Of a stretch of 60,339 bases of DNA, positions 33,340 to 52,758 are shown one piece after another. Position 1 is the stretch's first letter, and each line of letters begins with the position of its first letter. A program made the position numbers and the translations under genes. The stretch is taken from NCBI GenBank assembly GCA_038208355.1, contig JBBQYU010000001.1, forward strand, positions 1 through 60,339, read 5' to 3'. The notes beneath the pieces are model-generated. The model was not told the DNA's origin and searched no databases. It saw nothing but the letters and a program-made list of their open reading frames with translations. This DNA is from Candidatus Moraniibacteriota bacterium (GTDB taxonomy: Bacteria > Patescibacteriota > Minisyncoccia > Moranbacterales > UBA1568).

Positions 33340-35109
33340 TCAGTACGTCGAGCGGAGCGCGTTGATAATCACGACGGCATCAATCACCTCCTGGAGTATA
33401 GCTCCTTGTAAAGGCGGTATGAAGCCGAAGAAGCCGAAGACCATGCCCAAAGAAGAAAGTCCGATACCAATGACGATACTCTGCTTGGCCACATGATACG
33501 AGCGGCGGCCGATATGCACCGCGTCACGAATACGCCACACATCACGTCCCAAAATAGCCACATCCGCTGCCTCCAGTGAGGCGCTGTTTTCGGTACCAGA
33601 AAACACAATCCCCACATCGGCTAAGGCCAGGGCCGGAGCGTCGTTCATGCCGTCACCCACCATCCCCACCAGCTCACCTTCCTGCTGATAGCGCTTGACC
33701 AAAGAAACCTTCTTCTCCGGAGAACACTGCGCATAGACCGGCAAACGAAATCCACCAAACAGTCTATCGGCATTTTCTTTTTTATCCCCAGTGAGGATGC
33801 CCAGGCGATATCCGCGCTCCCGCAAATATCCAAAGACCTGAGGCACATCCGTTTTCAATTCATCATCAAAAAAGAACCGGGCAATAGGCTTCTCTTCGTG
33901 GAGCAAATCCACCACCATTCCAGCCGCCACAATATTACTCGTTTTCACCACGCTGAAACGGCTACCATCGATAGTCCCAAATATCCCCTCTCCAATCCGC
34001 TCTTCGACGTTTTCTGCCTGAGGAAGATGGTCATGAGAAAGGGCCTGCTCTTTTACCAACGAACGAGCAAGAGGATGAAACGAGTGCCACTCCAACGCAG
34101 CCGCCAGATTAAGGGCCTGCTCCTCGTCCAGCCCCGAGTCAAGCAGCTGGATTTTCTTGAGGCGTGGCTCGCCCAAGGTGAGTGTCCCCGTCTTATCAAA
34201 AAACAAGACCTTGGTTTTCGCCAAAAGCTCCAGGACATACGGACTTTTGATGATGATGTTCTTCCGTGCCGCTTTGTTCAGCCCCCCGATAAAACTCATA
34301 GGAGCGGCGATCAACAGCGGGCACGGTGTAGCAATAACCAGTACGGCCAAAAATCGTTCCCAGCCACCGAACAAGAAATGAGCGGCCAAAGCAAGCGCCA
34401 AAGCAAACAACGAAAACCAGATATTGTAACGCTCGGCCAAACGAGACAAAGGCGAGGGATGGCGTTTCCCTTGCTCGACCAAAGAAAGAATCTGGCGATA
34501 ACTGGAATGTTCAAAATCTCCCCGAACACGCATCTGGAGCATTTCCCCCACGTTGACACTCCCGCTCTTCAACAGACGCGTCTCCTCATACACTACCGGT
34601 TCCATTTCGCCCGTCAGCGTCGCTTCATTAAGCAGGGCCTTTTGGGAAAGCAGATAGCCATCGAACGCCACCATCTCATTGGGCCGCACTTCCAAAACAT
34701 CATCATTCTTAACAGCCTGCAAGGCCACACTCTCGCGCTCCGTTCCGTGCACTACCATCACCTCTTTCGGCAAAGCTTCAAACAATCCGCGCAGGGTCTT
34801 TTCTGCCCGGTGAGTGCCGTAGACTTCGAGAGCAGCGCTGATAGCGACCATCAGTGCGATAACTGCTCCCGAAAGCCACTCGTGAAGCAAAAAGGCGGTC
34901 ACCAAAGTAAGCAAGGCTAGATAATCCAGATTCCATTTCTTCATCCGCAAACGGCCCCATGATTCGAACAAAAGCTCACCCAAACCAATCATGATGGCCA
35001 CGGCATACAGCAGCGGCCACGAGAGAAAAAGCGCCACCAAAATAACCACCAGGATAAGAATGGGGAGATGAAACTCTCGACTTTTCACGACAGTATAAAA
35101 CTGAATCAT
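33340..35109 (-). CDS. P1B-type ATPase with TPCP transmembrane motif (P1B-5-like), no N-terminal metal-binding domain
   Basis: [33 protein letters not shown]. Start at ATG 35109 (MIQFY..). The ORF is open to 35196 but that stretch overlaps the upstream protease. Confidence 0.8.
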   Translation of the reverse strand: MIQFYTVVKSREFHLPILILVVILVALFLSWPLLYAVAIMIGLGELLFESWGRLRMKKWNLDYLALLTLVTAFLLHEWLSGAVIALMVAISAALEVYGTHRAEKTLRGLFEALPKEVMVVHGTERESVALQAVKNDDVLEVRPNEMVAFDGYLLSQKALLNEATLTGEMEPVVYEETRLLKSGSVNVGEMLQMRVRGDFEHSSYRQILSLVEQGKRHPSPLSRLAERYNIWFSLFALALALAAHFLFGGWERFLAVLVIATPCPLLIAAPMSFIGGLNKAARKNIIIKSPYVLELLAKTKVLFFDKTGTLTLGEPRLKKIQLLDSGLDEEQALNLAAALEWHSFHPLARSLVKEQALSHDHLPQAENVEERIGEGIFGTIDGSRFSVVKTSNIVAAGMVVDLLHEEKPIARFFFDDELKTDVPQVFGYLRERGYRLGILTGDKKENADRLFGGFRLPVYAQCSPEKKVSLVKRYQQEGELVGMVGDGMNDAPALALADVGIVFSGTENSASLEAADVAILGRDVWRIRDAVHIGRRSYHVAKQSIVIGIGLSSLGMVFGFFGFIPPLQGAILQEVIDAVVIINALRSTY

Positions 35110-35122
35110 TTTTTTTGTTTTG

Positions 35123-36568
35123 CTACACTCTCTTTTTCGGGCCGGTTTTCGGGCCAGATGAACTCGGTGGACGAAACAGCGCCCGCTCATCCGCATGCAA
35201 ACGGTCCTCTAAAAATTCGATTTCTTTTTCCTCTCGACGCACCACTCGGAGAAGCCAGAAAATCGCAGCCCCAAAAATTCCAAACAACATCAAACTCCCG
35301 CCAACTATATACAAAAGTGGATTCCCCAAAGTATTCACCCCGCCCCGAAATTCATCCCAGTACGTATCAAGCGACTCACCACCCAATTTCATCGCCTCGC
35401 AGCGTCTGATGTAGGGGTCCACATACTGTCCGGGCAGAAAATTCTGATTGGCCTGCTTAGCCTCCTCAAAGGAAACAACCGCCTTATCACAGTGCTTTTC
35501 CAACAAAGCGGCAAACCCCTGTTTGAAAGACATACCATAGACTCCTTCCATTGGGAGGATTCGGACGTCCGCCGCCTGGGCTAGCACCAAATCGATTGGC
35601 AAAGCAAAGGCGAAATTATCACCAGCTGACCGTGACAATTCATCTGTCTGGAAGGTAATAATCCCCACCACTTCGCCGCGCTCATTAAAGAGCGGGCCCC
35701 CGCTCGAACCTTGAGACACCTTGGCATCGGTCTGAAACATCCTAAAACTCTTGTCCGTAGACTCTTTGATAGCACTCACCACGCCCTGAGTAAACGTAGC
35801 CTCGGATGGATTATTCCCATTCACTTCCGCCGTGGCTGGAAAACCAAAAATAAAGGCTTTCTTTCCCACTAAAAGCTCGCGGGAGTTGCCCAGACGCAGG
35901 GCCGGCAAACCACGCTCACCAATTCTGATCAAAGCCACGTCTCGCTCGTCATCGATGAACCGGTCATTTAGGGCAATCACTTCGGCAGGAAATCCCTCCG
36001 CTATCAAGTCCTGAATTTTTGTTTTTTGGGAAGCTGGTCGCAGCACCGCTATCTGATGCTCCAGATCAAATTCACTGTGATCAATGACATACTGCACGAC
36101 CTGTCGGCCAAAACGCTCACCGCTCTCATCACTCAAGAACGTCTGCATTTCCGCGTCACTCAGATATAGAGCGTTCTCGAAGACCGCCGAAAGAGCACTC
36201 TCTGACGCCAAACTTATCTTGATAGTCTCGAGCGATATGACATGGGAATTGGTCGCAATATAGCCATCAGGATGAATGACAAAACCACTACCCGAAAGGT
36301 ATTCGTCCACCGGTACCTCAGTAAACTTGTCCGGAATCACCGCCACCAAACGCTGACGAATATCCACCTTGATAGCCGGAATCTTGGCCGTCCCGGTGAC
36401 GTGTTCCGCGATACGCACCACCGAAGGCTTCACCAAATCAGCCAACGCCTCTTCCGAGAGAGAGCTCTCTTGAGCCGCCGCCCGCTCCCAAGGAAAAAGA
36501 ACAGAGGCAGAAAAAAGCACTCCGAGTAAAAAGAAATATAACGATGTCGTGTTATTTTTTTTCAGCAT
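35123..36568 (-). CDS. trypsin-like (S1C) serine protease with C-terminal TM anchor
   Basis: GSGFVIHPDGYIATNSHV (His), DVALIRI (Asp), SQGSSGGPLF (Ser). Signal peptide and a late TM (LLYIVGGSLMLFGIFGAAIFWLL). Confidence 0.8.
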   Translation of the reverse strand: MLKKNNTTSLYFFLLGVLFSASVLFPWERAAAQESSLSEEALADLVKPSVVRIAEHVTGTAKIPAIKVDIRQRLVAVIPDKFTEVPVDEYLSGSGFVIHPDGYIATNSHVISLETIKISLASESALSAVFENALYLSDAEMQTFLSDESGERFGRQVVQYVIDHSEFDLEHQIAVLRPASQKTKIQDLIAEGFPAEVIALNDRFIDDERDVALIRIGERGLPALRLGNSRELLVGKKAFIFGFPATAEVNGNNPSEATFTQGVVSAIKESTDKSFRMFQTDAKVSQGSSGGPLFNERGEVVGIITFQTDELSRSAGDNFAFALPIDLVLAQAADVRILPMEGVYGMSFKQGFAALLEKHCDKAVVSFEEAKQANQNFLPGQYVDPYIRRCEAMKLGGESLDTYWDEFRGGVNTLGNPLLYIVGGSLMLFGIFGAAIFWLLRVVRREEKEIEFLEDRLHADERALFRPPSSSGPKTGPKKRV

Positions 36569-37816: not shown

Positions 37817-38386
37817 TTACCGCTTCCTCTTCTGATCGAAGAAATACAAATACAAAGCGTACAGAATCACTCCCATCTTGATAACAGACAAAGGGAACCA
37901 AACATTCGTTTGACATCCATCCCATACATACCAGCCAACAATAAACAGTACCGTATACAGCAGTTCCCAAAACCATTGCGGGCGACCACTAGAAACCTGC
38001 CAAAACCCATAGGTAAGATTGAATACCAAAAGCGCCACATACACTATCAAAAGAAACACCCACATTCCTGCCGGCAGGGTAAAGCAACGAACGGTAGCAA
38101 CCGCCCCTCCCACCTCAACCACCGTCATCGCTGCCTCCACATCAATGCGAGGTCCGTGTATTTCCGAAATCTTCAGAACCCTGTCAGACACAACTGGCGG
38201 CGATACCACCTGTTCTACCGCCGTGCTGCGTTCTGAAACACTCCCCTGGTCCGCGGGCTGTGTGCGCCAGAAAAGAGACGACATCGATACAGCCTCCAGC
38301 ACAAAAAACAAAATGATCAGCACGACTACCCCATGCTTCTTCAAAAAGAGAGCCGCTTGTCCAAACAATGCTTGTGCCGATGTCAT
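37817..38386 (-). CDS. polytopic membrane protein, last gene of the fibre locus
   Basis: 189 aa, one N-terminal and about three C-terminal TM. 7-nt gap to the sortase stop. No recognisable motif. Confidence 0.5.
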   Translation of the reverse strand: MTSAQALFGQAALFLKKHGVVVLIILFFVLEAVSMSSLFWRTQPADQGSVSERSTAVEQVVSPPVVSDRVLKISEIHGPRIDVEAAMTVVEVGGAVATVRCFTLPAGMWVFLLIVYVALLVFNLTYGFWQVSSGRPQWFWELLYTVLFIVGWYVWDGCQTNVWFPLSVIKMGVILYALYLYFFDQKRKR

Positions 38387-38392
38387 ACGCGT

Positions 38393-39049
38393 TTAATTAT
38401 CTGAAACCTGCTCCGCAATCACGATAAGGCGCTTGAACGTCGTGCCGGCCGGCCAGCATGTCATGAGTGTGAGTGTCTTTGTGCTTTCGTCGCCCGTCAG
38501 ATACTCTACCTGGTCGGAAGCAACAATCTTCGTCTCTACCACCTTGTACACGAACTTCTCCCGGTTATGAAAGAGGTATATCTCATCACCCTGTCTGAGC
38601 TTGCCTATCAAATAGAACACGGCATTGTAGCGATTGGCCTCATAAAAGTCAACTCCCGAATGGGCAAACAAAAAGACATTCCCCGCTGCCCCGGGATAGC
38701 TCGTCCCCCTGGCATGGGCCACGCCTTGGGTGAGCGCCCGCTGATATTCGGCGGAGTTTTCCCAATCCACGTCAGCAATCACCCTGGCATTAGCGCCAAT
38801 TTTTGGAATAACGATACCGAAGTCCTCATCTACTGGAACAAGTGCCTTGGCCGATGGAACAGCCTGCGCCATCTCCTCTTCTTTTGTCACAACAGGCAGG
38901 TTGTTATCTTTGGCGGAAAATTGATACTTGATCTCTTCCCGGACGACCGGCGCAAAAGTCAGATACAGGATAAAAACGGACATCGCCACAAGGACCATGC
39001 CCGCCCTCTCATAAAGGAAGTTCCGCTGACTATTGTTTGGATTTTCCAT
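38393..39049 (-). CDS. sortase (transpeptidase)
   Basis: TM anchor, FLFAHSG (His), TLTLMTCWP (TLxTC Cys), FKRLIV (Arg). ATG 39049 is preferred; the ORF is open to 39079. Confidence 0.85.
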   Translation of the reverse strand: MENPNNSQRNFLYERAGMVLVAMSVFILYLTFAPVVREEIKYQFSAKDNNLPVVTKEEEMAQAVPSAKALVPVDEDFGIVIPKIGANARVIADVDWENSAEYQRALTQGVAHARGTSYPGAAGNVFLFAHSGVDFYEANRYNAVFYLIGKLRQGDEIYLFHNREKFVYKVVETKIVASDQVEYLTGDESTKTLTLMTCWPAGTTFKRLIVIAEQVSDN

Positions 39050-41156
39050 TGTGACGTTTGCGATACATGAAATAAGCAATCACCAACACCGCAAGTGCCA
39101 TCAGTCCGGAAAGCCAGGGATGCTGCTGCAACCAATTTCCCACTACTTCAACGGCCGTCGCTTCACCCAAAACAGCACCCTCTGCTGATTCATTGGTGAC
39201 AGCACCCTGCCCCTCCCCATTGGTCGTTTCTGCTCCTTCTACCGCTCCCTCGGCAGCTGGGCCGGATACCGCAATGGCTCCGGTGGGGGCTGCTCCACCA
39301 GTCTCGATAGTTTTGGTCTTGGTGTGCGTCACGGTGTGTGTGTTGACATGCACATCTTTGTCACCGACAAAGTCCGATCCGAAACCATAGGCATCCACCG
39401 CGCGTAACGCGTAGAAAGAGTCATTACTGCAGCCCGGAGCCGCTTCAGTGAAACTGCCGACGACATCTGATCCGATAACCTGCTCATCGAGTTTGGTGGA
39501 GGCATCAGCCGTAAACGTGGTCGCAGACGAACGGTAGAGCTCGACTTTCACTGTCTTGCCAACATCATTGGCCGTCGTGAAGGTAATAACATTCTGACAG
39601 GACGCATCGTGGCGATCATAGTTGTACGGCGTGCCTGGAGGTGTCGCCACGAGCTTGACCGGAACAGTCACACTCGTTGCCGTCTCACTATCACCGCTGG
39701 TCGTCACGGCTTTGACATAAAACGTGTAGTCGCCGGCAGCCGGTATGACAGTGGCATCCACCTGGCAATCCCCCGAATTTCCGCCGTACGTAGAATCGAG
39801 AGAATAGGTGGCGAACGGTATGATATCGCTATCCTTGTAGCACTCCACCGTAAGAGAACGTCCAAGAATATCCAGAGTGACAAAACCAATCTTGAAATTC
39901 GGAGTATTGACGACTGCCTCCGGTTTTTCTATCTGTACCGCCAGGCTGGCGGCACTGGCGCCCTGCCCCATGAAAAGGAGAGTCCCTGAAAAAAGAGTAA
40001 AAAGAAGAGTTTTCATAAGGACGGAATTATTGGAAGATTCATTCTCTTTCTTCAATCGGCGCCCAAAGAAAGCAAGTCCAATACCGGTGACAAAAAGGAC
40101 GAGAGCGAGAGCAAGCCAGACACCGTTGGCACCAGTGAAAGGCAAGGTGGAAGCTCCGAGAACATACTGGATTTTTTTCTTCGTCTTCTCTATGAGCTTG
40201 TTCTCGTGGTCTGCCGGAACGATGACCGTAGGAGTTGCATCCACTGCCACCGCTACCTGTGTTCCGACGAAATTGTCTGAATCAATCGGGTCGACGGCCA
40301 GGATGCTCCCACTCCCCTGAGAAACTCCGCGGGCAAAAGCGAGGTCGCGATAAAGGCCATCATCCTGCGTATCACTGATTCTCGTCCGATAGGTCACGGT
40401 TTTTGTTTCACCGGCGGCCATATCACCCAGATCCCAAATACCCGGGGAAGCATACGCATGAATGAAAGGAGCCCCGCTTCCGGAGAGAGGAACATACTCG
40501 AAACCTTTCGGCGGGAGGTCGGTCAGTACGACATCATTCACATCGTCATCAAGTGCTGTGACTCGCAGCGTATACTGCACCTCATTCCCCGGCGCTTCGT
40601 CGCCAACCGAATCATTCGTCTTTTCAATCCGGAGACTCGCATGAACTTCCGGAACATCGATGCTTATGGCAACATTGAAATACACTTTTGTATTTTGGTA
40701 TTCATTCCCGGCATTTGGATTGAAGATGAACGTAATCTTGTATTCCTGCGTTCCGAGAGCAGGGAGAGAGCCGAGGTCAATGAGCGTGTCACTGAGATCC
40801 TGAAGCGTTTGGTGTGTGCCACCACCGGGCAGCGTGATGAGACCCGAGCCCACGCGCTCTATCGTGACGTCAATCTGCTCCTCGAGCTCAAAAGGGGGAT
40901 TTGGTACGAGCCCCTGTGAGAGATCGATGTGGAGACTCATGACGATATTCTGGGGAGTGCCAGTCAAATTCCGGACGGTCATCTTGTCCATAAACACATC
41001 TCCCGGCAAGATATTGGTATGAGTGATAAAGGGGTTGGTACCAATGACTTCTATCACATCGATCAAGTCTGGATCGACAGCCGAAACCGGCTCGGCCCAC
41101 GCAAGGAACGCGAGAGCGAAGAAGGTGCCGATAAAAATGTTCTTGTGCATACGCAT
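39030..41156 (-). CDS. bipartite surface protein with an internal LPFTG sorting signal followed in frame by a second signal-peptide-led module
   Basis: aa 1-26 signal (AWAEPVSA). DUF11-like fold (LRIEKTNDSVGDEAPGNEVQYTLRVT). LPFTG (40134-40148) plus TM plus RRLKK at aa 337-370. Then MKTLLFTLFSGTLLFMGQGASAAS (M381 = 40016), beta-rich region, C-terminal TM plus KRHNGKSKQ. Confidence 0.75.
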   Translation of the reverse strand: MRMHKNIFIGTFFALAFLAWAEPVSAVDPDLIDVIEVIGTNPFITHTNILPGDVFMDKMTVRNLTGTPQNIVMSLHIDLSQGLVPNPPFELEEQIDVTIERVGSGLITLPGGGTHQTLQDLSDTLIDLGSLPALGTQEYKITFIFNPNAGNEYQNTKVYFNVAISIDVPEVHASLRIEKTNDSVGDEAPGNEVQYTLRVTALDDDVNDVVLTDLPPKGFEYVPLSGSGAPFIHAYASPGIWDLGDMAAGETKTVTYRTRISDTQDDGLYRDLAFARGVSQGSGSILAVDPIDSDNFVGTQVAVAVDATPTVIVPADHENKLIEKTKKKIQYVLGASTLPFTGANGVWLALALVLFVTGIGLAFFGRRLKKENESSNNSVLMKTLLFTLFSGTLLFMGQGASAASLAVQIEKPEAVVNTPNFKIGFVTLDILGRSLTVECYKDSDIIPFATYSLDSTYGGNSGDCQVDATVIPAAGDYTFYVKAVTTSGDSETATSVTVPVKLVATPPGTPYNYDRHDASCQNVITFTTANDVGKTVKVELYRSSATTFTADASTKLDEQVIGSDVVGSFTEAAPGCSNDSFYALRAVDAYGFGSDFVGDKDVHVNTHTVTHTKTKTIETGGAAPTGAIAVSGPAAEGAVEGAETTNGEGQGAVTNESAEGAVLGEATAVEVVGNWLQQHPWLSGLMALAVLVIAYFMYRKRHNGKSKQ

Positions 41157-41165
41157 ATCGTTGAT

Positions 41166-43298
41166 CTATGATTCGTTACTCGGAGCGGTTTCCGGCTCTT
41201 TCACGACCGGTTCTACCACATCAGCCGGGGGCGCTTGATCGACGGCCTTCGGTTCTTCCCCTGCCGTGACTTCGCTCGGAGTTGTTTCCGTGGGAGTTTC
41301 TTTAATAACTTGCTCTTCTTTTGCTACCGGAATCTCCTCAGGAACACTGCCAGCCACAGTATCCGGCGTTCCAGACGTTTCCGTACCCGTAACCACAGGA
41401 ACTTCGGTTTCGGACGGGACAGTTCCTGTATCTTGAACCACAGTCTCGTCAGACGCTCCGGACTCTTGCAACAACGCAGCCAATTTCTTGGTCTCACGAT
41501 CAAGGACGCGGTCGAGTATCCCCAAAATGACATCATCATTTATCTTCTGGTCATCCGCTTCCTTGAGCATGCCCAGATACAGGAGGAACACAGGCGAACA
41601 AATCGCCTCACGATTACCCTTCTTCAGTTTTTCATTCTCAAAACAGGTATCAAACGTCAACAACTGGAAATCGCTCATCTCTTGTTTGTTCATTGCGTTT
41701 TCTTTGCCCGGCGTAGCCTCTGGATCGATCCAGATGCCCTCACCATCAGGGAAACGAGCGAACGATTTGCCTTCCGGCAGGGCGCCCGCGTTAGTATAGC
41801 TCACGGTATCTTCTCGCACATCGTCGGTCGCAACATCCACTGCCAGTGGGTTGTAAAGCGAAAGGGTATCCGCATCATTATCCAGGAACTTCTGCTCGAG
41901 ATAGACCACCAACTGGCCATGGCCGGGCACCAGCGTATCGCCACTTTCCGTATTGGCGGCCGAAATCACAATCTGATCGCCAGCGGCATTGGTGATGTAC
42001 CAGCCTGTCACATCAATCGGGGTGTCGAGGATATTGTAAAGTTCAATCCATTCGCCATTTGGACGACTAGCGTCATCCTCACCAATTGGATTGGGCACGA
42101 ATTCATTGAGCACAATCGGGGAAAGATTGGCAGCCTTCGGCGTGCCATAGTTATTACCCACAGCGTCCCAGTACGGAGCACCATTGGCCGCACCCGAGAC
42201 ACAGGCGTGCCAGCTTCCAACCAGGAGACCATCACCCGGAATATCATTACGCTCCATAGACTGCTCAAATGGCGTACTAGAGCCATGGTTCCCTGCCGCC
42301 CAATTCGGAGCGCCCAGGGCGCTATCGATGACGAGATTGGTGTTACTCTTCAGGACCAGGTTTCCGTTCCCAGTATTATTGAGTTCTACATTGGTCGTTA
42401 CCCAATCAGGAGCAACGTCTAACGCTGAATTGGCATCGGTTTTTTCATAATTAGCAATCAGGAAATATCCGTGGGCGGGAATGAATTTTCCACTTGGTAT
42501 TGTCAGTATTCCTCCGCTCACCGACGAAGCATTCTCGATCTTCCAGCCGGCAATCGGGATAGCGCTCCCCGTCATATTGCGGAGCTCAATCCACTCATCA
42601 TGGGAATTCACCGTCGAACCCATCCACATCACCTCGTTCAACACCACATCGCCCGCGGTCAGCCATTCGCCGGTCGTCACACTATGGACGCCCGCCGTCT
42701 CCGTATCGACAAAACCGGTACCATCATCAGGCAAGTTCGTCTGCCATGCGTGCAGATCAAAATTCCAACTACAATTTTTGTTCTCAAGCGTACCACCGGC
42801 ATCGGCAGGCAGTTCGAGCGCGAAATTCCACTTGTCCTGGCCGAAAACAGGGATAGTATAGGGGCTGCCCGCGATGCTGGCGCTATCAAAGTCCTTGAGG
42901 GGGAGCTTATCATACACCACTGTGCCACCACGCTTGGCGGTCAAAAGGAGGGCACTGCAAAGCCCCATATCTCCTCCCGTGTTGCGGTATTTCACCTGGT
43001 ACTGAAAATCGAGGCCGCCCTCGTTCTTAAAGGTCATATTCTGACTGGGATTGTCCTCTGGCGTCATACCTGTCACCAAGAACTGTTCGAGGTAACTGAC
43101 CCGCCCATCGAGACTGGCGGCCGTGAAAGAATTACCCGTACTTTCTTCAATATCAGAAAATCCCGCGTTCGTCCCACCGATTCGCGTCACCCCCACAAAC
43201 AAAACAAGCACCAAAAAGGCCATCGTCACCTTCCGCATCGATTGCAGAATGCGCTTGGTAATCACTGACTGATATTTTTTAGACGGTCGTTTTTTCAT
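41166..43298 (-). CDS. SipW-signal protein with TasA-like N-domain, two lamin-tail domains (LTD) and an acidic Pro/Glu/Thr tail
   Basis: RIGGTNAGFSDIEESTGNSFTAASLD. LTD1 VVLNEVMWMGS..DEWIELRNMTGSAIPIAGWKI. LTD2 IVLNEFVPNPIG..GEWIELYNILDTPIDVTGWYI. Confidence 0.75.
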   Translation of the reverse strand: MKKRPSKKYQSVITKRILQSMRKVTMAFLVLVLFVGVTRIGGTNAGFSDIEESTGNSFTAASLDGRVSYLEQFLVTGMTPEDNPSQNMTFKNEGGLDFQYQVKYRNTGGDMGLCSALLLTAKRGGTVVYDKLPLKDFDSASIAGSPYTIPVFGQDKWNFALELPADAGGTLENKNCSWNFDLHAWQTNLPDDGTGFVDTETAGVHSVTTGEWLTAGDVVLNEVMWMGSTVNSHDEWIELRNMTGSAIPIAGWKIENASSVSGGILTIPSGKFIPAHGYFLIANYEKTDANSALDVAPDWVTTNVELNNTGNGNLVLKSNTNLVIDSALGAPNWAAGNHGSSTPFEQSMERNDIPGDGLLVGSWHACVSGAANGAPYWDAVGNNYGTPKAANLSPIVLNEFVPNPIGEDDASRPNGEWIELYNILDTPIDVTGWYITNAAGDQIVISAANTESGDTLVPGHGQLVVYLEQKFLDNDADTLSLYNPLAVDVATDDVREDTVSYTNAGALPEGKSFARFPDGEGIWIDPEATPGKENAMNKQEMSDFQLLTFDTCFENEKLKKGNREAICSPVFLLYLGMLKEADDQKINDDVILGILDRVLDRETKKLAALLQESGASDETVVQDTGTVPSETEVPVVTGTETSGTPDTVAGSVPEEIPVAKEEQVIKETPTETTPSEVTAGEEPKAVDQAPPADVVEPVVKEPETAPSNES

Positions 43299-43330
43299 CT
43301 TTACTCTGTAAAACTCAGCATACCTATGGC

Positions 43331-43927
43331 TTAAGATTCTTCCCCAGTCGAATCCTGCTTCGCAGGAGCACCTTCAGTGCTATTCGACGGGGCAGGGCGC
43401 TTTTCTACTCGACGTTTGTAATCCGCTTTTTTCTTCAGCTCTCTCCGAATCTTCTGCGCTTCTTCATAAATAATCAGTACTGCCGGAATAACGATAATCA
43501 ACCCAAAGCCCCAAGGCTGCTGCGCCGTAGCGACGGCATAGCCGATATAGGGGACAGAGAAGAGCACTTTGCCGATAATCTCATAGCGACTGACCGTGCG
43601 CATATCCTCACCATTGTTGGCATCACCGCGTGTAACAAATCCGCCCTCTTTCACTTCCATGATGCGATGGGTGGTCGGCGTCTTTCCCTTGCTCTTGGGG
43701 CCAAAGGTAATGACGTCGCCTACACGATAGTCAGCCATAGGCTTTATCACTACCACGCTTCCGGTCTTGATAGCCGGCTCCATACTCCCCGACTGCACCA
43801 CATAGGTTTTGATGCCTCCGGGCACCGGCACCGCCGACGCAATGAGTACCACCGCCACGAGCGCAATAGCTGCGTAGAAGAGATAGGCCAAGACCTTGAA
43901 TATTCTGTCTGATGTTCCTTGCGCCAT
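43331..43927 (-). CDS. sipW: SipW-type (S26B, ER/archaeal-like) signal peptidase I
   Basis: VQSGSMEPAIKTGSVVVI (Ser), TTHRIMEV (His), VTRGDANNGED. ATG 43927 is preferred because the earlier ATG 43987 lies inside the 43974-44000 hairpin. Confidence 0.85.
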   Translation of the reverse strand: MAQGTSDRIFKVLAYLFYAAIALVAVVLIASAVPVPGGIKTYVVQSGSMEPAIKTGSVVVIKPMADYRVGDVITFGPKSKGKTPTTHRIMEVKEGGFVTRGDANNGEDMRTVSRYEIIGKVLFSVPYIGYAVATAQQPWGFGLIIVIPAVLIIYEEAQKIRRELKKKADYKRRVEKRPAPSNSTEGAPAKQDSTGEES

Positions 43928-43973
43928 AGTTTTTGCTTCGGTCTCTTTTTTAATACACGATAAGACCTTTATC

Positions 43974-44000
43974 CTCCCGCCTTCCATGTGAAGGCGGGAG
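43974..44000 (-). promoter_or_regulatory. intercistronic GC hairpin between fibre-subunit gene and sipW
   Basis: CTCCCGCCTT-CCATGTG-AAGGCGGGAG, 10-bp stem, no U-tract. Confidence 0.6.
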
Positions 44001-44028
44001 TAAAAAGCCTGAACGTCAGGATTTTCTA

Positions 44029-45369
44029 TTAGTGAGGCGCGCTGTCTGCGGCCACTGCGGGCGTGAGGTCAACCTGATCACACGAGAACTCGCTATTGTT
44101 TCTCTGCTGCACCGCGTAGGCGACAAAGTCAGAGATGACCTTGTCGGTCTGGGCCTTATTACCCATACCATTGCCATCACAACTGACGGCTGGCGTATCC
44201 GAACTGGTCGATGGACCGGTCTGGGTTCCCGCACACCAGGTGAAGCCGACGAAATCAATCGGCGCCGGGCTTGAGAGCGCCAGCGGAATCATGGTGTTGA
44301 GACTACGCATCGGCGTACCCGCATTGACCAAGACATCCTCGGTCGGAGCGTCGAAGACGCCGTTGTTATTCTTGTCATTCCAGACGAAGAATTGGAGCTC
44401 GCCTGAAAGCTCGCCGGTTGTAGCATCATCACCGAGAGCTACTTCCGGATCAACAAGACCATTCTCGTCGTCCTGAATATTGGTCGGGAGGAGACAGACA
44501 TAAGCGTCATTGGTGTAAACATGAAGAGAAATGACGTTTGTGCCATAATCCCCCGGCTTCACATCGGTGAAATTCCAGAAAGTATCTCCTTGAGTGAGGT
44601 CCTTTTCACCCCAGAGGGTGCACGTTCCACCATTTGTGTACGCAAAGGGCGTACAGTTCAAAGCGTGTACCGCAATGTCATCAAGATAGCCACCAAGGGT
44701 ATCTGCTTGGTTCCCAGCATCAGCAAATTTGACCGTTGTCTGGGTGTCGAGTGCAATAAAGTTATACGTCTCTTGTGTCCACGAGGTAGCCGATCCGCCG
44801 ATTGATGAATTTTCAACGGTGCTATTTATCATGACACCGCTTGTCGATGTTACGAGAACCGTCCAAGCAATCGTGTTATCTCCCGCAGGACCATTATTTG
44901 GTCGCGGTGAGTGCCAAAAAGTCAACCGATATTTCTGGCCAGGTACCGTACTGATGACCTGCTCTATCGTTGACTGACTACCGGCTCCGTGGCTATCCAA
45001 CTCAGCGAGCTGGCTGCCTCCGTGGGGGTTGCCTGCTGCATGGTCTTGAATTTCAAGACCGGCACCGCCCACAACAGCCCAACCAGGAACAGTAGTGCCT
45101 GTATATACCTGCCACTGACCATTTGAGAGATTTGGGTCTTCAAATCCGCCGTTCACGATAAGATCTGTATCTTCTTCGGTGCATTCTCCCACACATTCCT
45201 GGCCATCATACGAGGCGTAGGTGTGGTCCACTTTGAGGTCGATGGCACCAGCGGTGAAGATGTTCCCATTGGACGTCTCCGTGTCGCTGAAGAGCGCTCT
45301 CGTTCCCCCGACTGCGACCGCTGCCACCGCAGCAATCGTACTCAGACTAATTAATATTTTCTTGTTCAT
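44029..45369 (-). CDS. TasA/camelysin-like fibre subunit with SipW-cognate signal and DUF642-like insert
   Basis: MNKKILISLSTIAAVAAVAVGGTRALFSDTETSNGNIFTAGAIDLKVD. Insert FEDPNLSNGQWQVY..VPGWAV...GGSQLAELD...GQKYRLTFWHSPR. Confidence 0.8.
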   Translation of the reverse strand: MNKKILISLSTIAAVAAVAVGGTRALFSDTETSNGNIFTAGAIDLKVDHTYASYDGQECVGECTEEDTDLIVNGGFEDPNLSNGQWQVYTGTTVPGWAVVGGAGLEIQDHAAGNPHGGSQLAELDSHGAGSQSTIEQVISTVPGQKYRLTFWHSPRPNNGPAGDNTIAWTVLVTSTSGVMINSTVENSSIGGSATSWTQETYNFIALDTQTTVKFADAGNQADTLGGYLDDIAVHALNCTPFAYTNGGTCTLWGEKDLTQGDTFWNFTDVKPGDYGTNVISLHVYTNDAYVCLLPTNIQDDENGLVDPEVALGDDATTGELSGELQFFVWNDKNNNGVFDAPTEDVLVNAGTPMRSLNTMIPLALSSPAPIDFVGFTWCAGTQTGPSTSSDTPAVSCDGNGMGNKAQTDKVISDFVAYAVQQRNNSEFSCDQVDLTPAVAADSAPH

Positions 45370-45393
45370 AACGATTTATTGAATGATTACGAG

Positions 45394-46749
45394 TTAGTTC
45401 TCAAAATCAGTCTTCTCCGAGTTAAACTGAATCCAATCAACAACGCCCTCTTCACCAGTTGGTCCTGGGTGTCCAACGCGAACACCAAGCCAGGAATCAG
45501 TAGAGCGAGTTTCTGCGTTCGGGTAATCAGCCACAATAGCAGACCATGTTCGATTTGTAGAACCTGAGAAAGGTACGGTCGTGGTTGATCCCACTGGCCA
45601 ATTTCCTCCTGACAAGTGCCACATCTCAGCCAGAGCATCCACTTCGGTCCAGGTACTAACTGGTATAGTGGCTGAAGATTGTACTAAGCGTCGTTGCCAG
45701 GTATCACTATTGTTAAAGTCAATATTGAAGTTGAGGTATGGTGATCCACCTGAGACTGAAGGATCATAGACACGATACTTCAGCGTATTGATATTACTCA
45801 ACTTCACGTCCTTATACTTGTAGGTAGCAATATTATACCGAGGATCAGTTTCTGAGCCGAGCACCATCTTGGCACCCCCTGACCCAGCGACGGACTCCAT
45901 ATGATTTTGACCACCTGTACTACTAAACTGATCAATGATCATGACAGTGTCATTGGTGTCATCGTAGAAGAACCATTTCCCGTTCCCATTGGCGGTCACT
46001 TTGCTACCTGTTTCAAGACCGGCCTGATGAACCACGGTGGTGATTCCATCTGAACACTTAAACGCTCCGTTGTTGCGAGCCTGGACGACATTGAAACTGA
46101 TATCGCCTGTCATACTGTCCGTCTGGACTTCGTTTCCGGTCCCGATCGGAAGGCTCCAAGCTACCCCAAGGTAGCCAGTGGTACCACCGGCCAAGGGGCC
46201 TGTTTCTGTAGCTGAGTCATAGATGGCCCAAACATCGTCCTGAGGAGCTCCAGTATAGAGCACTTCCTCTGTTCCGTTTTGAATATTGTCGCCTGCGATT
46301 CCGCTACCAGCACCGTTGTCTCTCCAAACGGTGAGAACAAGGTTTTGCTGGAGCTCACCCACACTTTGAGTAGTATCACCAGCCTCGCCTTCTGGCTCGT
46401 TGATGCCATTTTCATCATTGGTAAGCCCAGAAACCGTCGCACAAACCCACGCATCATTGTTGATTACGTGCAGGCTGATAGTGTTTTCACCACTATCCCC
46501 AGGTTTCACATCACCGAAGTTGAAGAATTTATCGGCTGTGGGAACCAAATCTTTTTCAGCCCAAGTCGCAGCAGCGACAGAGACACCATTATAGGTAGCC
46601 GTACTGTCTACCTTCAGGTCGATGGCCCCGGCGGTGAAGGTATTGCCCATCGAAGTCTCCGTGTCACTGAAGAACGCGCTCGTTCCACCGATCACCACCG
46701 CGGCTACCGCGCCGATGACCGAGAGACTCATAATTATTTTTTTATTCAT
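45394..46749 (-). CDS. TasA/camelysin-like fibre subunit with SipW-cognate signal and C-terminal jelly-roll-like domain
   Basis: MNKKIIMSLSVIGAVAAVVIGGTSAFFSDTETSMGNTFTAGAIDLKVD. FNFGDVKPGDSGENTISLHVINNDAWVC parallels the same block in 44029-45369. Confidence 0.8.
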   Translation of the reverse strand: MNKKIIMSLSVIGAVAAVVIGGTSAFFSDTETSMGNTFTAGAIDLKVDSTATYNGVSVAAATWAEKDLVPTADKFFNFGDVKPGDSGENTISLHVINNDAWVCATVSGLTNDENGINEPEGEAGDTTQSVGELQQNLVLTVWRDNGAGSGIAGDNIQNGTEEVLYTGAPQDDVWAIYDSATETGPLAGGTTGYLGVAWSLPIGTGNEVQTDSMTGDISFNVVQARNNGAFKCSDGITTVVHQAGLETGSKVTANGNGKWFFYDDTNDTVMIIDQFSSTGGQNHMESVAGSGGAKMVLGSETDPRYNIATYKYKDVKLSNINTLKYRVYDPSVSGGSPYLNFNIDFNNSDTWQRRLVQSSATIPVSTWTEVDALAEMWHLSGGNWPVGSTTTVPFSGSTNRTWSAIVADYPNAETRSTDSWLGVRVGHPGPTGEEGVVDWIQFNSEKTDFEN

Positions 46750-46977: not shown

Positions 46978-47163
46978 CTTCAGAGAACAAAATTTTTGTG
47001 TCTTCATCATACTCATCATAGTGACGAAAGACTCACCCGTGAAGATCACTTTTGTTTTTATTTTTAGCCTGTTAAGGCAAACCTCCTGAAATAGAACGAC
47101 TTTTCCTACTCTGTTTTCTTAGGCTAAACCCCTATCTCTTCCGTGTCAAGCGGCCAATTTTGA

Positions 47164-47199
47164 CAAAAAAACCGGGTAGCCCATGAAAAGAGCTACCCG
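47164..47199 (-). terminator. rho-independent terminator of the PEP-CTERM gene
   Basis: Minus strand: CGGGTAGC-TCTTTTCATGG-GCTACCCG followed by GTTTTTTTT. Confidence 0.75.
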
Positions 47200-47233
47200 A
47201 TGACTGATGTTGTCAGTCGTTGACTGATGGTTA

Positions 47234-48040
47234 TCAGCTTTTTACTGCGTTCCGCCGGCCAGACAGCCGTACAGCACCAAGCCCGAACAGTCCAATGCCC
47301 AGAAGAGCAAATGAGGCTGGCTCCGGAACCTGCGACGTGGGTGTGTTCGACCAATGAGCAGTATAGTCCGAGCAGACAGCGGCCTGGAGACTGGCGTCTC
47401 CGCAAAAGTTGTATGCCTGCATGATGCCAGCCGAGAACCCGGTCGAGCCGTTGATGGTCGCATCCGTGTACGCCAAGGTGTCGTTGATCCGATACTCGTA
47501 GGACGAGCCGGTGAACTCCATGGAAAACGCCGTCCACGTATCGTAGGCGACGGCTAGGGCAAGATTGACCCAGCTGGTATCGTCCCAGACGCGGAGAACG
47601 GGAGTGCCTCCATAGTTGGTGAACCCGATAATCGGATAGTCTGTCACAGCAGAACCATCGGTCATCACGCCCCACACATCGGTGCGCCGACTGCCGAGAG
47701 ATGAGTCACCCCACGATGCTGGGATATAGAGATCCGCCGAAAGAACCGATCCGACACCACCAGTGAGCGCATGTTGCCGCCCCTGCGTGTTGTAAAAGGC
47801 ACTCTGATAGCCTCCCGGCCGATTTGAGTACCCTTCCGCTGAGGTGATACCAATACCCAGGACATTGTCGCGCCCTTGATAGGTCCCGACGTTCTGGAAG
47901 CTGTTTGGATCAAAGCGATCCGTCGTCCAGCCTGTCGGCACACTGGCAAAATCCGGCATGATTGGGGTGGCCTGTGCGGTGGCGATGATTCCCGCAAACA
48001 AAACCCCTGCCCACACGCCCTTGAAAAGAACTTTTTTCAT
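47234..48040 (-). CDS. PEP-CTERM sorting-domain protein
   Basis: Signal MKKVLFKGVWAGVLFAGIIATAQA. C-terminus VPEPASFALLGIGLFGLGAVRLSGRR (PEP, TM, Arg cluster). ATG 48040; the ORF is open to 48109. Confidence 0.8.
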   Translation of the reverse strand: MKKVLFKGVWAGVLFAGIIATAQATPIMPDFASVPTGWTTDRFDPNSFQNVGTYQGRDNVLGIGITSAEGYSNRPGGYQSAFYNTQGRQHALTGGVGSVLSADLYIPASWGDSSLGSRRTDVWGVMTDGSAVTDYPIIGFTNYGGTPVLRVWDDTSWVNLALAVAYDTWTAFSMEFTGSSYEYRINDTLAYTDATINGSTGFSAGIMQAYNFCGDASLQAAVCSDYTAHWSNTPTSQVPEPASFALLGIGLFGLGAVRLSGRRNAVKS

Positions 48041-48194
48041 TGCTACAACTCCTGTTGACGGAACGTCACGATTAACGTACCGACAGATATAATAGCCGAT
48101 TATAGCCATTTCGTCAAGCGTGGTAAAATATCACCTGAATAAAAAACAAGGCTGACGCCTTGTTTTGAAAATATTCTGATGTCTTCTCTTACCC

Positions 48195-52215: not shown

Positions 52216-52758
52216 TTATTCAATCATTATCTTCCCGCGCATCTCCACGTGCCCCTCCCCGCACCACACGGAACAGAAAAACTCGAACGTTCCTACCTTA
52301 CTCGCCAGAAACTCAACGACGGCACCATCGGGTGGAATATCTTGATCCACTCCAAGGTCGGGAATGACCAAACCATGTTTGACATCGGCATTGTGAATAA
52401 TAAGCCTGACCAATTCCCCTTTTTTGGCAGTGATCGTGGCGGGATCCCAGGCATACTGGCGCACTCCTATATGGATAGTCCGTTCCGTTCTTCCGTTCTT
52501 CTCTTCCACCGTGATGATAGGATATGTAATCACCCCTTCGGAAACAGACTGGATAGAAGAAACAGGAATCTCGCCCGTATCTTCTTTTACCGGCTCTTCC
52601 TTCTGCTCCGAAGAAACCGGCTTGAGCTGTGACGCTAGAACGGATTCCTGTTTTGTCTCCTGCAAGATTCTCGGCTCATCCTTGGTGCGGTATACCCACC
52701 AAGTCACTCCCTCCATAGCCGCCAAAACAACAACCAAGAATGCGACCATCATTTTCAT
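52216..52758 (-). CDS. membrane-anchored cupredoxin-fold protein
   Basis: TM anchor. C-terminal FEFFCSVWCGEGHVEMRGKI (C..C...H..M, CuA/cupredoxin-like ligand set). Confidence 0.7.
   Translation of the reverse strand: MKMMVAFLVVVLAAMEGVTWWVYRTKDEPRILQETKQESVLASQLKPVSSEQKEEPVKEDTGEIPVSSIQSVSEGVITYPIITVEEKNGRTERTIHIGVRQYAWDPATITAKKGELVRLIIHNADVKHGLVIPDLGVDQDIPPDGAVVEFLASKVGTFEFFCSVWCGEGHVEMRGKIMIE

What the first reader, a model, noticed from the sequence alone, without database searches (positions are those of the whole stretch)
37817..46749. Hybrid surface-fibre locus: SipW-type peptidase plus three TasA/camelysin-like substrates plus sortase plus LPFTG protein
Seven minus-strand genes have gaps of 45 nt or less, or overlaps. 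Three products share a near-identical N-terminus, (V/I)GGT.A.FSD(T/I)E(T/E)S.GN.FTA(G/A).(I/L)DL. This is the signature of SipW-cognate signal peptides, as in B. subtilis TasA and B. cereus CalY. The dedicated S26B peptidase sits in the middle. The same operon then encodes a sortase and a protein with an LPFTG/TM/RRLKK sorting signal. The known paradigms are separate: tapA-sipW-tasA fibres need no sortase, and sortase pili need no SipW. I know of no described system that couples the two. One model is SipW-matured fibre subunits (two of about 450 aa with different add-on domains, one with LTDs) built on a sortase-anchored base.
Basis: partly seen in the sequence, partly recalled or inferred. 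Interest (0 to 1): 0.85.

Follow-up and report, generated by a model that had tools for sequence, protein, structure and literature searches.

The report
Sortase-anchored TasA-like fibre operon in Patescibacteria
A tiny symbiotic-type bacterium (Moranbacteria group) has one operon that makes TasA-like surface-fibre subunits with their own signal peptidase. The operon joins the fibre's predicted base subunit to a sortase wall-anchoring module through a sortase motif in the middle of the protein. This is a new variant of two known systems, not a wholly new one.

Summary
Seven tightly packed minus-strand genes encode three proteins with SipW-type signals, an archaeal/ER-type signal peptidase, an LPFTG protein, a sortase and a small membrane protein. 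The same gene order recurs in relatives at 50-65% identity.

Three corrections:
1. The SipW/TasA-like cassette is widespread in Patescibacteria: 381 loci in species genomes and 5,307 protein clusters. It normally ends with a fourth TasA-fold protein that lacks the donor strand and carries its own membrane anchor. A sortase lies within 10 kb in only 6 of 80 loci.
2. LPFTG is internal, at residues 338-342 of 708. Behind it come a membrane helix, a second signal-like segment and a conserved 200-residue domain ("g5C"). In 65 metagenome loci g5C always accompanies this sortase clade, fused (44) or as a separate gene (21).
3. TasA-family genes next to LPXTG and sortase genes have already been reported in Clostridia.

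Best model: the window's g5 fuses the acceptor-only base subunit of a donor-strand fibre to a Patescibacteria sortase module, which would link the fibre base to the cell wall. Polymerisation and sortase cleavage are inferred, not shown.

Verdict: new variant of a known kind; interest about 0.6.

The parts
47015..47043 (-). Promoter-like site upstream of g1. A strong terminator of the preceding gene lies at 47171-47201.
   Evidence: the -35/-10 match is 9 of 12. The terminator has a 12-bp stem and a T7 tail after the PEP-CTERM gene, which sets the upstream boundary of the operon. These are consensus matches only.
45394..46749 (-). g1, 451 aa. Fibre subunit candidate with a SipW-type signal (predicted cut after A25), a donor-strand-like N-terminus, a Patescibacteria TasA-like core (about aa 46-236) and a C-terminal jelly-roll/CBM-like domain (237-451).
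   Evidence: TIGR04088 30.3 bits. PF12389 28.4 bits on residues 3-52 only. AF2 model pLDDT 86, with residues 1-33 disordered. Foldseek hit to the TasA fibre 8aur_A: probability 0.94, TM 0.31. hhalign against the Bacillus TasA family: 97%, E 1.2e-10.
46615..46674 (-). g1 residues 26-45, FFSDTETSMGN-TFTAGAIDL. This is the equivalent of the TasA donor strand (28-38) plus linker (39-47).
   Evidence: hhalign alignment without the signal peptide: 93%, E 2.6e-7. TasA residue roles come from PMC9674648. The columns are invariant or near-invariant in 96 homologues.
44029..45369 (-). g2, 446 aa. Second subunit candidate with the same signal and donor strand (nt 45235-45294). A DUF642/choice-of-anchor-C domain (aa 70-234, nt 44668-45162) is inserted before the TasA-like core.
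   Evidence: TIGR04088 25.8 bits. DUF642 40.2 bits. TIGR04362 75.8 bits, below its cutoff. Alignment with the g1 family.
43331..43987 (-). g3, 218 aa. S26B (archaeal/ER, SipW-type) signal peptidase I with two membrane helices (28-46, 155-173). Motifs: SGSMEP (66-71), THRI (106-109), GDAN (121-124).
   Evidence: TIGR02228 114.1 bits (cutoff 51.85). The Bacillus SipW equivalog model scores 100.6 bits, below its cutoff of 190. Motifs and helices. A homologue lies beside TasA-like genes in 67 of 80 Patescibacteria loci.
41166..43298 (-). g4, 710 aa. Third subunit candidate with a SipW-type signal (cut after A45), a donor-strand motif at aa 46-65 (nt 43104-43163), a TasA-like core of the g5N subtype, two LTD domains (about nt 41739-42656), a helical region and an acidic Pro/Thr/Glu-rich tail. 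It has no membrane anchor.
   Evidence: TIGR04088 19.1 bits (cutoff 19). PF12389 25.4 bits on residues 22-99. LTD 82.7 bits. g4 orthologues in L089 and L110 also hit the g5N-type HMM.
39030..41156 (-). g5, 708 aa. A composite protein made of a Sec signal, an acceptor-only TasA-fold domain (g5N), a DUF11 stalk, an internal LPFTG sorting signal and the g5C accessory protein.
40641..41078 (-). g5N (aa 27-172). A TasA-fold jelly roll that lacks the donor strand. Predicted base or terminator subunit.
   Evidence: hhalign of 29 g5N-type sequences against mature TasA: 83.5%, E 8.3e-6 over 135 columns, covering TasA 36-228. Against the Patescibacteria TasA-like core: 29%, E 5.9e-4. AF2 predicts a beta-sandwich with pLDDT about 80-88.
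40164..40640 (-). DUF11 / B_ant-repeat Ig-like stalk domain (aa 173-331).
   Evidence: PF01345 39.4 bits and TIGR01451 24.5 bits. Many columns are invariant.
40131..40145 (-). Internal LPFTG sortase motif (aa 338-342). It is followed by a membrane helix (nt 40044-40124) and RRLKK (nt 40047-40061).
   Evidence: L338, P339, T341 and G342 are invariant in 28 homologues. The motif lies in a disordered linker of the model. The same internal position, 344-426 residues from the C-terminus, is found in 43 of 44 fused metagenome proteins.
39051..40025 (-). g5C accessory part. It has a second hydrophobic, signal-like segment ending GASA|AS (aa 378-402), two beta-sandwich domains with conserved Cys residues (aa about 401-600, nt 39357-39956), a Thr/Gly/Glu-rich linker and a C-terminal membrane helix with a basic tail (nt 39051-39119).
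   Evidence: It exists as a separate 316-355-aa gene with its own signal peptide in 21 loci, and a sortase gene follows directly. No Pfam family matches it.
38393..39079 (-). g6, 228 aa. Sortase with an N-terminal membrane helix. Motifs: FAHSG (138-142), TLMTC (204-208), R217. It overlaps the end of g5.
   Evidence: PF04203 85.9 bits. TIGR01076 63.3 bits (cutoff 39.35). No class model (A-F) reaches its cutoff. Motifs. It is 46-60% identical to the sortases that follow every g5-family gene.
37817..38386 (-). g7, 189 aa. Membrane protein with about three hydrophobic helices and no family match. It is conserved only in the closest relatives, so whether it belongs to the system is uncertain.
   Evidence: No Pfam or NCBIfam hit. 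Homologues are found in only three loci (L002, L003 and L037). It starts 6 nt after g6.

Best explanation
The locus fuses two Patescibacteria surface modules.

Module A is a cassette found across Patescibacteria for a TasA-type fibre. Several paralogous subunits (here g1, g2 and g4) are exported with a special signal that a dedicated SipW-type peptidase (g3) cuts. The cut exposes a conserved N-terminal strand (FSDTETSxGN) that corresponds to the TasA donor strand. That strand is inferred to insert into the jelly roll of a neighbouring subunit. The result would be a non-covalent fibre that displays different add-on binding domains: a CBM-like domain, DUF642 and LTD. The last gene of the cassette encodes a TasA-fold protein with an ordinary Sec signal and no donor strand. 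It can accept a strand but cannot donate one, so it must sit at one end of the fibre. Because it is membrane-anchored in most lineages, that end is the cell-proximal base or terminator.

Module B is a Patescibacteria sortase cassette. It consists of a surface protein with a DUF11 stalk and LPxTG, an accessory type-I membrane protein (g5C) and the sortase.

In this Moranbacteria clade the acceptor-only subunit has become the passenger of module B. g5 would be inserted with three membrane spans. The sortase g6 would cut at LPFT|G and transfer g5N-DUF11, and with it the fibre, to the cell wall. g5C would stay in the membrane.

Shown: the gene families, the motifs, the conserved architecture, the synteny and the homology of g5N to the TasA core.

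Inferred: polymerisation, fibre polarity, sortase cleavage and the acceptor of the transfer.
For: 1. Family assignments come from curated models.
2. Operon-like packing, with a terminator and promoter only upstream.
3. The N-terminal motif of g1, g2 and g4 aligns with TasA 28-47, the donor strand plus linker. hhalign gives 97% with the signal peptide and 93% without it. TasA residue roles are from PMC9674648. The motif is disordered, not packed, in the monomer model.
4. g5N aligns with TasA 36-228 but has no donor strand.
5. g5N-type proteins are the last gene of the cassette in 31 of 58 Patescibacteria loci that extend at least 4 kb beyond the peptidase gene. Most of them carry one to five C-terminal membrane helices.
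6. Sortase anchoring of this same subunit appears in a second form, with a sortase clade only about 30% identical to g6. In L043 the g5N protein ends in LPKTG. In L026 the g5N protein is followed by an LPRTG protein and a sortase.
7. The identical seven-gene or core order is found in L002, L003, L004, L037, L038, L089 and L110.
8. Module B occurs independently in 65 metagenome loci. A sortase is adjacent in 51 of the 58 loci with enough downstream sequence.
9. The membrane topology of g5 obeys the positive-inside rule at all three spans.
Against: - Nothing here shows a fibre. No multimer prediction could be run.
- The mature domains of g1, g2 and g4 have no Pfam match.
- Profile similarity of g1, g2 and g4 to TasA stops after about 50 mature residues.
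- The Foldseek match to the TasA fibre is weak: rank 13, TM 0.31.
- hhalign between the g5 family and the g1 family was insignificant with the narrow alignment (0.9%) and only 29% with the broad one.
- Module B also occurs without any TasA cassette (L005, and most metagenome loci), so adjacency could be modular shuffling of surface genes.
- In C. perfringens strain 13 the neighbouring sortase was dispensable for BsaA polymers (PMC7395162).
- The sortase class and its acceptor molecule are unknown.
Confidence: 0.55

Rival explanations
1. There is no fibre. g1, g2 and g4 are monomeric secreted or surface adhesins or enzymes that only share a special export signal cut by the SipW-type peptidase. 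g5 is a separate sortase-anchored adhesin. The two sets sit together because surface-protein genes cluster.
For: The mature domains have no TasA Pfam match and fold support is weak. The add-on domains (DUF642, LTD, CBM-like) are typical of adhesins. Module B is mostly found without TasA-like genes, in about 53 of 65 loci.
Against: The mature N-terminus after the cleavage site is the most conserved part of the family, across 96 sequences and three paralogues. It aligns with the TasA donor strand. A signal peptide alone would not constrain residues beyond the cut. A donor-less TasA-fold protein is conserved as the last cassette gene. g5N is fused into the sortase substrate, or paired with a sortase, in two different ways.
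Confidence: 0.2
2. The sortase does not link g5 to peptidoglycan. It links it to the accessory protein g5C or to another membrane-bound acceptor. The fibre base would then be membrane-tethered through g5C, which would explain why g5C always accompanies this sortase clade and is so often fused to the substrate.
For: g5C is present in all 65 module-B loci, fused (44) or as the gene between substrate and sortase (21). It is a type-I membrane protein with a predicted AxA signal-peptidase site that would create a new N-terminal amine. In other Patescibacteria the base subunit is membrane-anchored, not wall-anchored.
Against: No precedent was recalled or found (one search returned nothing). No conserved acceptor lysine or glycine was identified. 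Canonical sortases use lipid II or wall cross-bridges.
Confidence: 0.12
3. Covalent hybrid. The sortase joins LPFT of g5 to the new N-terminal amine, or to a lysine, of the SipW-matured subunits. In this reading SipW cleavage creates the nucleophile, and the fibre is covalently attached or partly polymerised by the sortase.
For: This rests only on the co-occurrence of the two processing enzymes in one operon and on the exposed, conserved new N-terminus.
Against: g1, g2 and g4 have no LPXTG, so the sortase cannot polymerise them. No class C sortase signature is met and no pilin-motif evidence was found. Most Patescibacteria cassettes work without any sortase.
Confidence: 0.06
4. The long g5 ORF is an assembly or frameshift artefact that joins two genes.
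For: In 21 related loci the substrate and g5C are separate, slightly overlapping genes.
Against: The fused reading frame is intact in 28 aligned homologues at 33-67% identity from independent assemblies. It is also intact in 44 metagenome loci. The window sequence has no stop between the two parts.
Confidence: 0.02

Closest known systems
Bacillus subtilis tapA-sipW-tasA (and B. cereus sipW-tasA-calY)
   Same: A dedicated S26B signal peptidase is encoded among its substrates. The substrates carry the TIGR04088-type signal and an N-terminal strand that aligns with the TasA donor strand. Several paralogous subunits share one operon.
   Different: There is no TapA homologue. In Bacillus the accessory protein TapA donates the first strand and no sortase is involved. 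Here the accessory end-subunit is acceptor-only, which implies the opposite polarity at the cell, and it is a sortase substrate. The subunits are about 450-710 aa with large add-on domains, against 261 aa for TasA. Similarity of the mature domains to TasA is marginal.
Clostridium perfringens bsa locus (sipW-bsaA-bsaB-bsaC with adjacent srtB; PMC7395162, PMC11580942)
   Same: SipW, TasA-family paralogues, an LPXTG-bearing paralogue (in ATCC 13124 and most strains) and a neighbouring sortase gene. The literature already notes that TasA-family genes often neighbour LPxTG, sortase and signal peptidase genes.
   Different: In Clostridium the sortase gene is divergent and was dispensable in strain 13. 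The LPXTG there is C-terminal. BsaA locks its subunits with isopeptide bonds, and secretion involves type IV pilus proteins. Here the sortase is translationally coupled, LPxTG is internal, and the anchored protein is the donor-less subunit.
Sortase-assembled Gram-positive pili (SpaA type)
   Same: A sortase and an LPXTG protein lie in the same operon as the fibre subunits. The base of the fibre is predicted to be fixed to the wall by transpeptidation.
   Different: Only one LPXTG protein is present. The shaft subunits lack LPXTG and pilin-motif evidence. The sortase does not reach the class C cutoff. Polymerisation is predicted to be non-covalent strand exchange.
Terminator or anchor subunits of donor-strand pili (PapH in chaperone-usher pili; PamR proposed for the Patescibacteria Pam pilus, bioRxiv 10.64898/2026.03.03.709456)
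   Same: The concept of a special end-subunit that stops growth and ties the fibre to the envelope. The Pam pilus shows that Patescibacteria build donor-strand fibres without an outer-membrane usher.
   Different: The protein families are unrelated. Pam pilins use an internal linker strand and membrane-anchored chaperones. The Pam paper does not mention SipW or TasA and names sortase only in its introduction. Homology to Pam proteins could not be tested here.

Membership tests
S26B / SipW-type signal peptidase I | Match to the archaeal/ER-type SPase I model above its curated cutoff | tested here: met
   TIGR02228 114.1 bits against a cutoff of 51.85.
S26B / SipW-type signal peptidase I | Equivalog of Bacillus SipW (NF046067 cutoff) | tested here: not met
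   100.6 bits against a cutoff of 190. It is the same type of enzyme but not an orthologue-level match.
S26B / SipW-type signal peptidase I | Catalytic Ser and His motifs, and two membrane helices | tested here: met
   SGSMEP 66-71, THRI 106-109, helices 28-46 and 155-173. Assigning these motifs as catalytic rests on general knowledge of S26B enzymes.
S26B / SipW-type signal peptidase I | Encoded next to substrates that carry the cognate signal | tested here: met
   Three TIGR04088 proteins flank it. The same holds in 67 of 80 Patescibacteria loci.
TasA/CalY family (PF12389, Peptidase_M73) | Pfam match above the gathering score | tested here: met
   g1 28.4, g2 24.6 and g4 25.4 bits against 22.5. 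The matches cover only profile positions 3-52, or 4-79 for g4, of 196.
TasA/CalY family (PF12389, Peptidase_M73) | Homology over the whole mature jelly-roll domain | tested here: inconclusive
   g1 family: hhalign against the Bacillus TasA family gives 97%, but the alignment ends at TasA residue 79. The mature cores alone give 37%. There is no Pfam hit for the mature parts. Foldseek hit to 8aur_A: probability 0.94, TM 0.31. g5N family: 83.5%, E 8e-6 over TasA 36-228.
TasA/CalY family (PF12389, Peptidase_M73) | N-terminal donor strand equivalent to TasA 28-38 | tested here: met
   g1, g2 and g4 have FSDTETSxGN aligned to AFNDIKSKDAT. g5N lacks it.
TasA/CalY family (PF12389, Peptidase_M73) | Forms fibres by donor-strand exchange | not testable with these tools
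   No multimer prediction was available and no experiment was possible.
Sortase (PF04203) | Family model above its cutoff, with His, TLxTC Cys and Arg present | tested here: met
   PF04203 85.9 bits, TIGR01076 63.3 bits. H140, C208 and R217 lie in FAHSG, TLMTC and FKRLIV.
Sortase (PF04203) | Assignable to a described class (A-F) | tested here: not met
   The best score is class C at 69.3 bits against a cutoff of 160. Classes D, E and F are also below their cutoffs.
Canonical LPXTG cell-wall sorting signal | LPxTG motif, then a hydrophobic helix, then a basic patch | tested here: met
   LPFTG 338-342, helix about 345-371 in the AF2 model, with RRLKK 366-370 at its cytoplasmic end.
Canonical LPXTG cell-wall sorting signal | The signal lies at the extreme C-terminus, with about 30-40 residues from motif to end | tested here: not met
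   366 residues follow the motif. The same is true in 43 of 44 fused relatives, where 344-426 residues follow. In 21 related loci the signal is canonical and g5C is a separate gene.
Sortase-polymerised pilus (SpaA type) | Several LPXTG pilins and a class C sortase | tested here: not met
   One LPXTG protein and one sortase in 60 kb. The class C cutoff is not reached.
tapA-sipW-tasA operon | TapA-like accessory protein | tested here: not met
   No TapA or YqxM family hit for any of the seven proteins.
Patescibacteria Pam pilus (PamA/PamB) | Homology to Pam pilins or chaperones | not tested
The described architecture differs.

The most novel reading that the evidence does not exclude
Patescibacteria widely build a TasA-type donor-strand fibre. 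Its cell-proximal end is a dedicated acceptor-only TasA-fold subunit, giving the opposite polarity to TapA-TasA. In a Moranbacteria clade this base subunit is made as a polyprotein. A sortase splits it at an internal LPxTG, links the fibre base to the cell wall and leaves a conserved partner (g5C) in the membrane. That would be the first wall-linked TasA-type fibre. It would also be the first sortase substrate family in which the sorting signal is routinely followed by a functional protein. The fibre is plausibly a host-attachment organelle of these episymbionts.
Probability: 0.35. Interest if true: 0.8.

Novelty: new variant of a known kind. Interest (0 to 1): 0.6.

Why it matters
Patescibacteria live attached to other microbes, and little is known about their surface organelles beyond type IV pili and the newly described Pam pili. 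This locus points to a third fibre type that is very common: 5,307 protein clusters and 381 loci in species genomes. It has a clear parts list and a testable polarity, namely an acceptor-only anchored subunit.

For sortase biology, the conserved accessory protein g5C is unexpected. So is its frequent in-frame fusion behind an internal LPxTG. Together they suggest that sortase cleavage can serve as a polyprotein-splitting step.

For TasA biology, the locus offers natural variants with different anchoring solutions: a membrane helix, a C-terminal LPxTG or an internal LPxTG. These could show how such fibres are started or ended.

Tried and rejected
- Sequence searches of g1, the g1-family profile and the g5-family profile against PDB sequences found nothing useful.
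- Foldseek with whole multi-domain models gave only generic jelly-roll or Ig hits. The TasA fibre ranked 13th for g1 and nothing specific came up for g5. Domain-wise searches were not possible because model coordinates are not exposed.
- hhalign of the narrow g5 alignment against the g1 family was insignificant. A broader g5N alignment was needed.
- An iterated signal peptidase HMM became contaminated (303 hits) and was discarded in favour of single-query phmmer counts.
- The exhaustive representative search listed only the 150 best hits, so it could not bridge to Bacillus TasA. I built a TasA family alignment instead.
- A literature search for "internal LPXTG" found no paper.
- The Pam pilus preprint describes a different system.
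- The sortases beside the TasA cassettes in L010 and L011 are distant (22-24% identity) and have no LPXTG partner. I treated them as probably coincidental.
- The assembly-artefact explanation for the g5 fusion was rejected.

Full report
**Observation.**
- g1 45394-46749
- g2 44029-45369
- g3 43331-43987
- g4 41166-43298
- g5 39030-41156
- g6 38393-39079
- g7 37817-38386

Gaps are 24, 41, 32, 9 and 6 nt, and g5 and g6 overlap. A strong terminator (47171-47201) closes the upstream gene, and a promoter-like site (47015-47043) precedes g1. No comparable terminator lies inside the cluster. Closest homologues are named Moranbacteria/Moraniibacteriota, and the source is a 60,339-bp NCBI contig.

**Family assignments.**
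- g1, g2 and g4 reach the curated cutoff of TIGR04088, the SipW-dependent signal model, at 30.3, 25.8 and 19.1 bits. They also reach PF12389.
- g3 is an archaeal/ER-type signal peptidase I (TIGR02228, 114 bits). It falls below the Bacillus SipW equivalog cutoff.
- g6 is a sortase (PF04203, 85.9 bits) with H140, C208 (TLMTC) and R217. It fits no described class.
- g2 carries DUF642, g4 carries two LTDs and g5 carries DUF11.
- g7 has no family.
- g5 is the only LPXTG protein and g6 the only sortase in the window.

**How TasA-like are the subunits?** The Pfam hits cover only the signal peptide and the first strands. The mature parts alone hit nothing. I built a genuine TasA/CalY alignment and compared profiles.
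- The g1 family (96 sequences) matches TasA with 97% probability (E 1.2e-10) over TasA 3-79.
- The match is still 93% without the signal peptide.
- FSDTETSxGN-xFTAGxIDL aligns with TasA 28-47. In the TasA fibre structure this is the donor strand (28-38) plus linker (PMC9674648).
- In the AF2 model of g1 (pLDDT 86) this segment is disordered.
- Foldseek finds the TasA fibre only weakly: rank 13, probability 0.94, TM 0.31.

So the signal and the donor strand are TasA-type. For g1, g2 and g4, homology across the whole TasA jelly roll was not demonstrated.

**Anatomy of g5.** Alignment of 28 homologues and an AF2 model give this layout:
- a Sec signal (…PVSA|VD)
- a beta-sandwich domain, g5N (27-172)
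- DUF11 (173-331)
- an invariant L-P-x-T-G (338-342) in a disordered linker
- a membrane helix plus RRLKK
- a second hydrophobic segment ending GASA|AS
- two beta-sandwich domains with conserved cysteines, g5C (about 401-600)
- a low-complexity linker
- a final membrane helix with a basic tail

The topology is self-consistent. A profile of 29 g5N-type sequences aligns with mature TasA over residues 36-228 (83.5%, E 8e-6), which is the whole jelly roll but not the donor strand. g5N is therefore a TasA-fold subunit that can accept a strand but cannot donate one.

**Synteny in near relatives.** L002 and L003 (54-62% identity) have the same seven genes in the same order. L004, L037, L038, L089 and L110 have the core order peptidase, LTD protein, g5, sortase, and four of the five also carry the upstream subunit genes. 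Every g5-family gene is followed by a sortase that is 46-60% identical to g6.

**The wider cassette.** A scan of 185,579 species genomes with the g1-family alignment found 381 relatives, and the best 80 loci are all Patescibacteria-type. The exhaustive profile search found 5,307 clusters.
- The usual order is TasA-like, TasA-like, peptidase, TasA-like, then a g5N-type protein.
- The peptidase is present in 67 of 80 loci.
- Among the 58 loci with at least 4 kb beyond the peptidase gene, 31 have a g5N-type gene. It nearly always has one to five C-terminal membrane helices.
- A sortase lies within 10 kb in only 6 of 80 loci.
- Two of those six are the window's architecture (L037, L038).
- Two are an independent solution with a sortase only about 30% identical to g6. 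In L043 the g5N protein ends in LPKTG. In L026 the g5N protein is followed by an LPRTG protein.
- The remaining two (L010, L011) look coincidental.

**The sortase module.** A metagenome scan with the g5 alignment returned 74 loci, and 65 of them contain g5C.
- In 44 loci g5C is fused behind an internal LPxTG, with 344-426 residues after the motif in 43 of them. The proteins run from about 450 to 3,150 aa, and some are cut by contig ends.
- In 21 loci the substrate ends with a canonical LPxTG-helix-RRKY signal. There g5C is a separate 316-355-aa gene with its own signal peptide.
- A sortase follows directly in 51 of the 58 loci with enough downstream sequence.
- g5C is therefore a conserved accessory protein of this sortase clade, and the g5 fusion is not an artefact.
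- Only the window's clade carries g5N as the passenger.
- In L006 the same modules sit side by side unfused, and in L005 module B stands alone.
- In 11-12 of the 65 loci, TasA-like or SipW-type genes lie within 10 kb in varied orientations.

**Model.** The locus is a fusion of two surface modules. SipW-type cleavage exposes the donor strands of g1, g2 and g4. These subunits are inferred to polymerise by strand exchange and to display CBM-like, DUF642 and LTD domains. The donor-less g5N caps the cell-proximal end. The sortase g6 cuts LPFT|G and fixes g5N-DUF11 to the wall, or possibly to g5C, while g5C remains in the membrane. The enzymes, motifs, architecture and conservation are shown. Polymerisation, polarity, cleavage and the acceptor are inferred.

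**Literature and novelty.**
- TasA homologues in Patescibacteria have been noted (PMC9245690).
- Sortases are known to be enriched in these bacteria (PMC6744442).
- PMC11580942 already says that TasA-family genes often share operons with LPxTG, signal peptidase and sortase genes. It also says most C. perfringens strains have an LPXTG BsaB next to srtB. In strain 13 srtB was dispensable (PMC7395162).
- The Pam pilus of Patescibacteria is a different donor-strand system.
- I found no description of three features seen here: the acceptor-only anchored subunit, the g5C accessory protein, and the internal LPxTG.

This is a new variant of known kinds, not a new category.

**Caveats.** No multimer modelling was possible. 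Fold searches used whole multi-domain models. Locus counts come from capped samples (80 and 74 loci) and are not corrected for phylogeny. ORF calling in the loci was mechanical. Whether g3 is the only signal peptidase of the organism cannot be judged from 60 kb.

Noticed in passing
window 47234-48109 (-): The 291-aa protein just upstream of the operon ends in VPEPASFALLGIGLFGLGAVRLSGRR. This is a PEP-CTERM sorting signal (TIGR02595 18.4 bits, cutoff 16). PEP-CTERM/exosortase is regarded as a Gram-negative system, so it is odd in a Patescibacteria contig. The gene has its own strong terminator (47171-47201). No exosortase gene was looked for.
   Followed up: partly
L026 19511-20452 and L043 17513-18109: The sortases of the second sortase-coupled TasA-like cassette type read TLQTS where the catalytic TLxTC cysteine should be. 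They may use a serine nucleophile or be inactive.
   Followed up: no
L133, L135, L139, L143, L154 and 16 other metagenome loci: g5C-type proteins occur as stand-alone genes of about 316-355 aa between an LPxTG substrate and a sortase. They overlap the substrate stop by 7-34 nt. This is an undescribed sortase-associated accessory family with no Pfam match.
   Followed up: partly
L010 11593-12627, L011 11814-13496, L012 13943-16138, L112 12743-14923, L132 13125-16640: In several loci the SipW-type peptidase ORF is much longer (344-1171 aa) than the usual 170-220 aa. This suggests fusions of the peptidase to extra domains or to a TasA-like protein. The ORFs were called mechanically and the fusions were not verified.
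   Followed up: no
window 33340-35196, 50086-52209, 52216-52758, 55107-58328, 58341-59708: The operon is flanked by three heavy-metal or copper P-type ATPases, a cupredoxin-like protein and an HMA-DsbD_2-cupredoxin protein. The same copper genes flank the g5-sortase pair in L004 and L005.
   Followed up: no
window 25052-27835 (-): A 927-aa protein with four Laminin_G_3 (concanavalin-like lectin) domains. It is another probable surface adhesin.
   Followed up: no
window 1277-1678 (+): tmRNA gene (RF00023, 125 bits). It is the only Rfam match at gathering threshold in the window.
   Followed up: no
window 44008-44020: A short palindromic hairpin (5-bp stem) with T-rich tails on both strands lies between g2 and g3. 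It could attenuate transcription after the two first subunit genes. This is a consensus match only.
   Followed up: no
L010, L014, L021, L037, L038, L066 (record titles): Several MAG records titled Gammaproteobacteria, Bdellovibrionales or Pseudomonadales carry this Patescibacteria-type cassette at 40-58% identity. Their taxonomic labels are probably wrong.
   Followed up: no
g1 family alignment A3; g5 alignment A1: Two cysteines are invariant in the TasA-like core (C97 and C226 in P0001 numbering). C439 and C464 are invariant in g5C, and C520 and C576 are at least 90% conserved. This suggests structural disulfides in these extracellular domains.
   Followed up: no
L002 14861-16869: In a close relative, four T4SS_pilin/TrbC-like genes lie about 2 kb downstream of the syntenic operon. 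The neighbourhood may be a surface-structure island.
   Followed up: no
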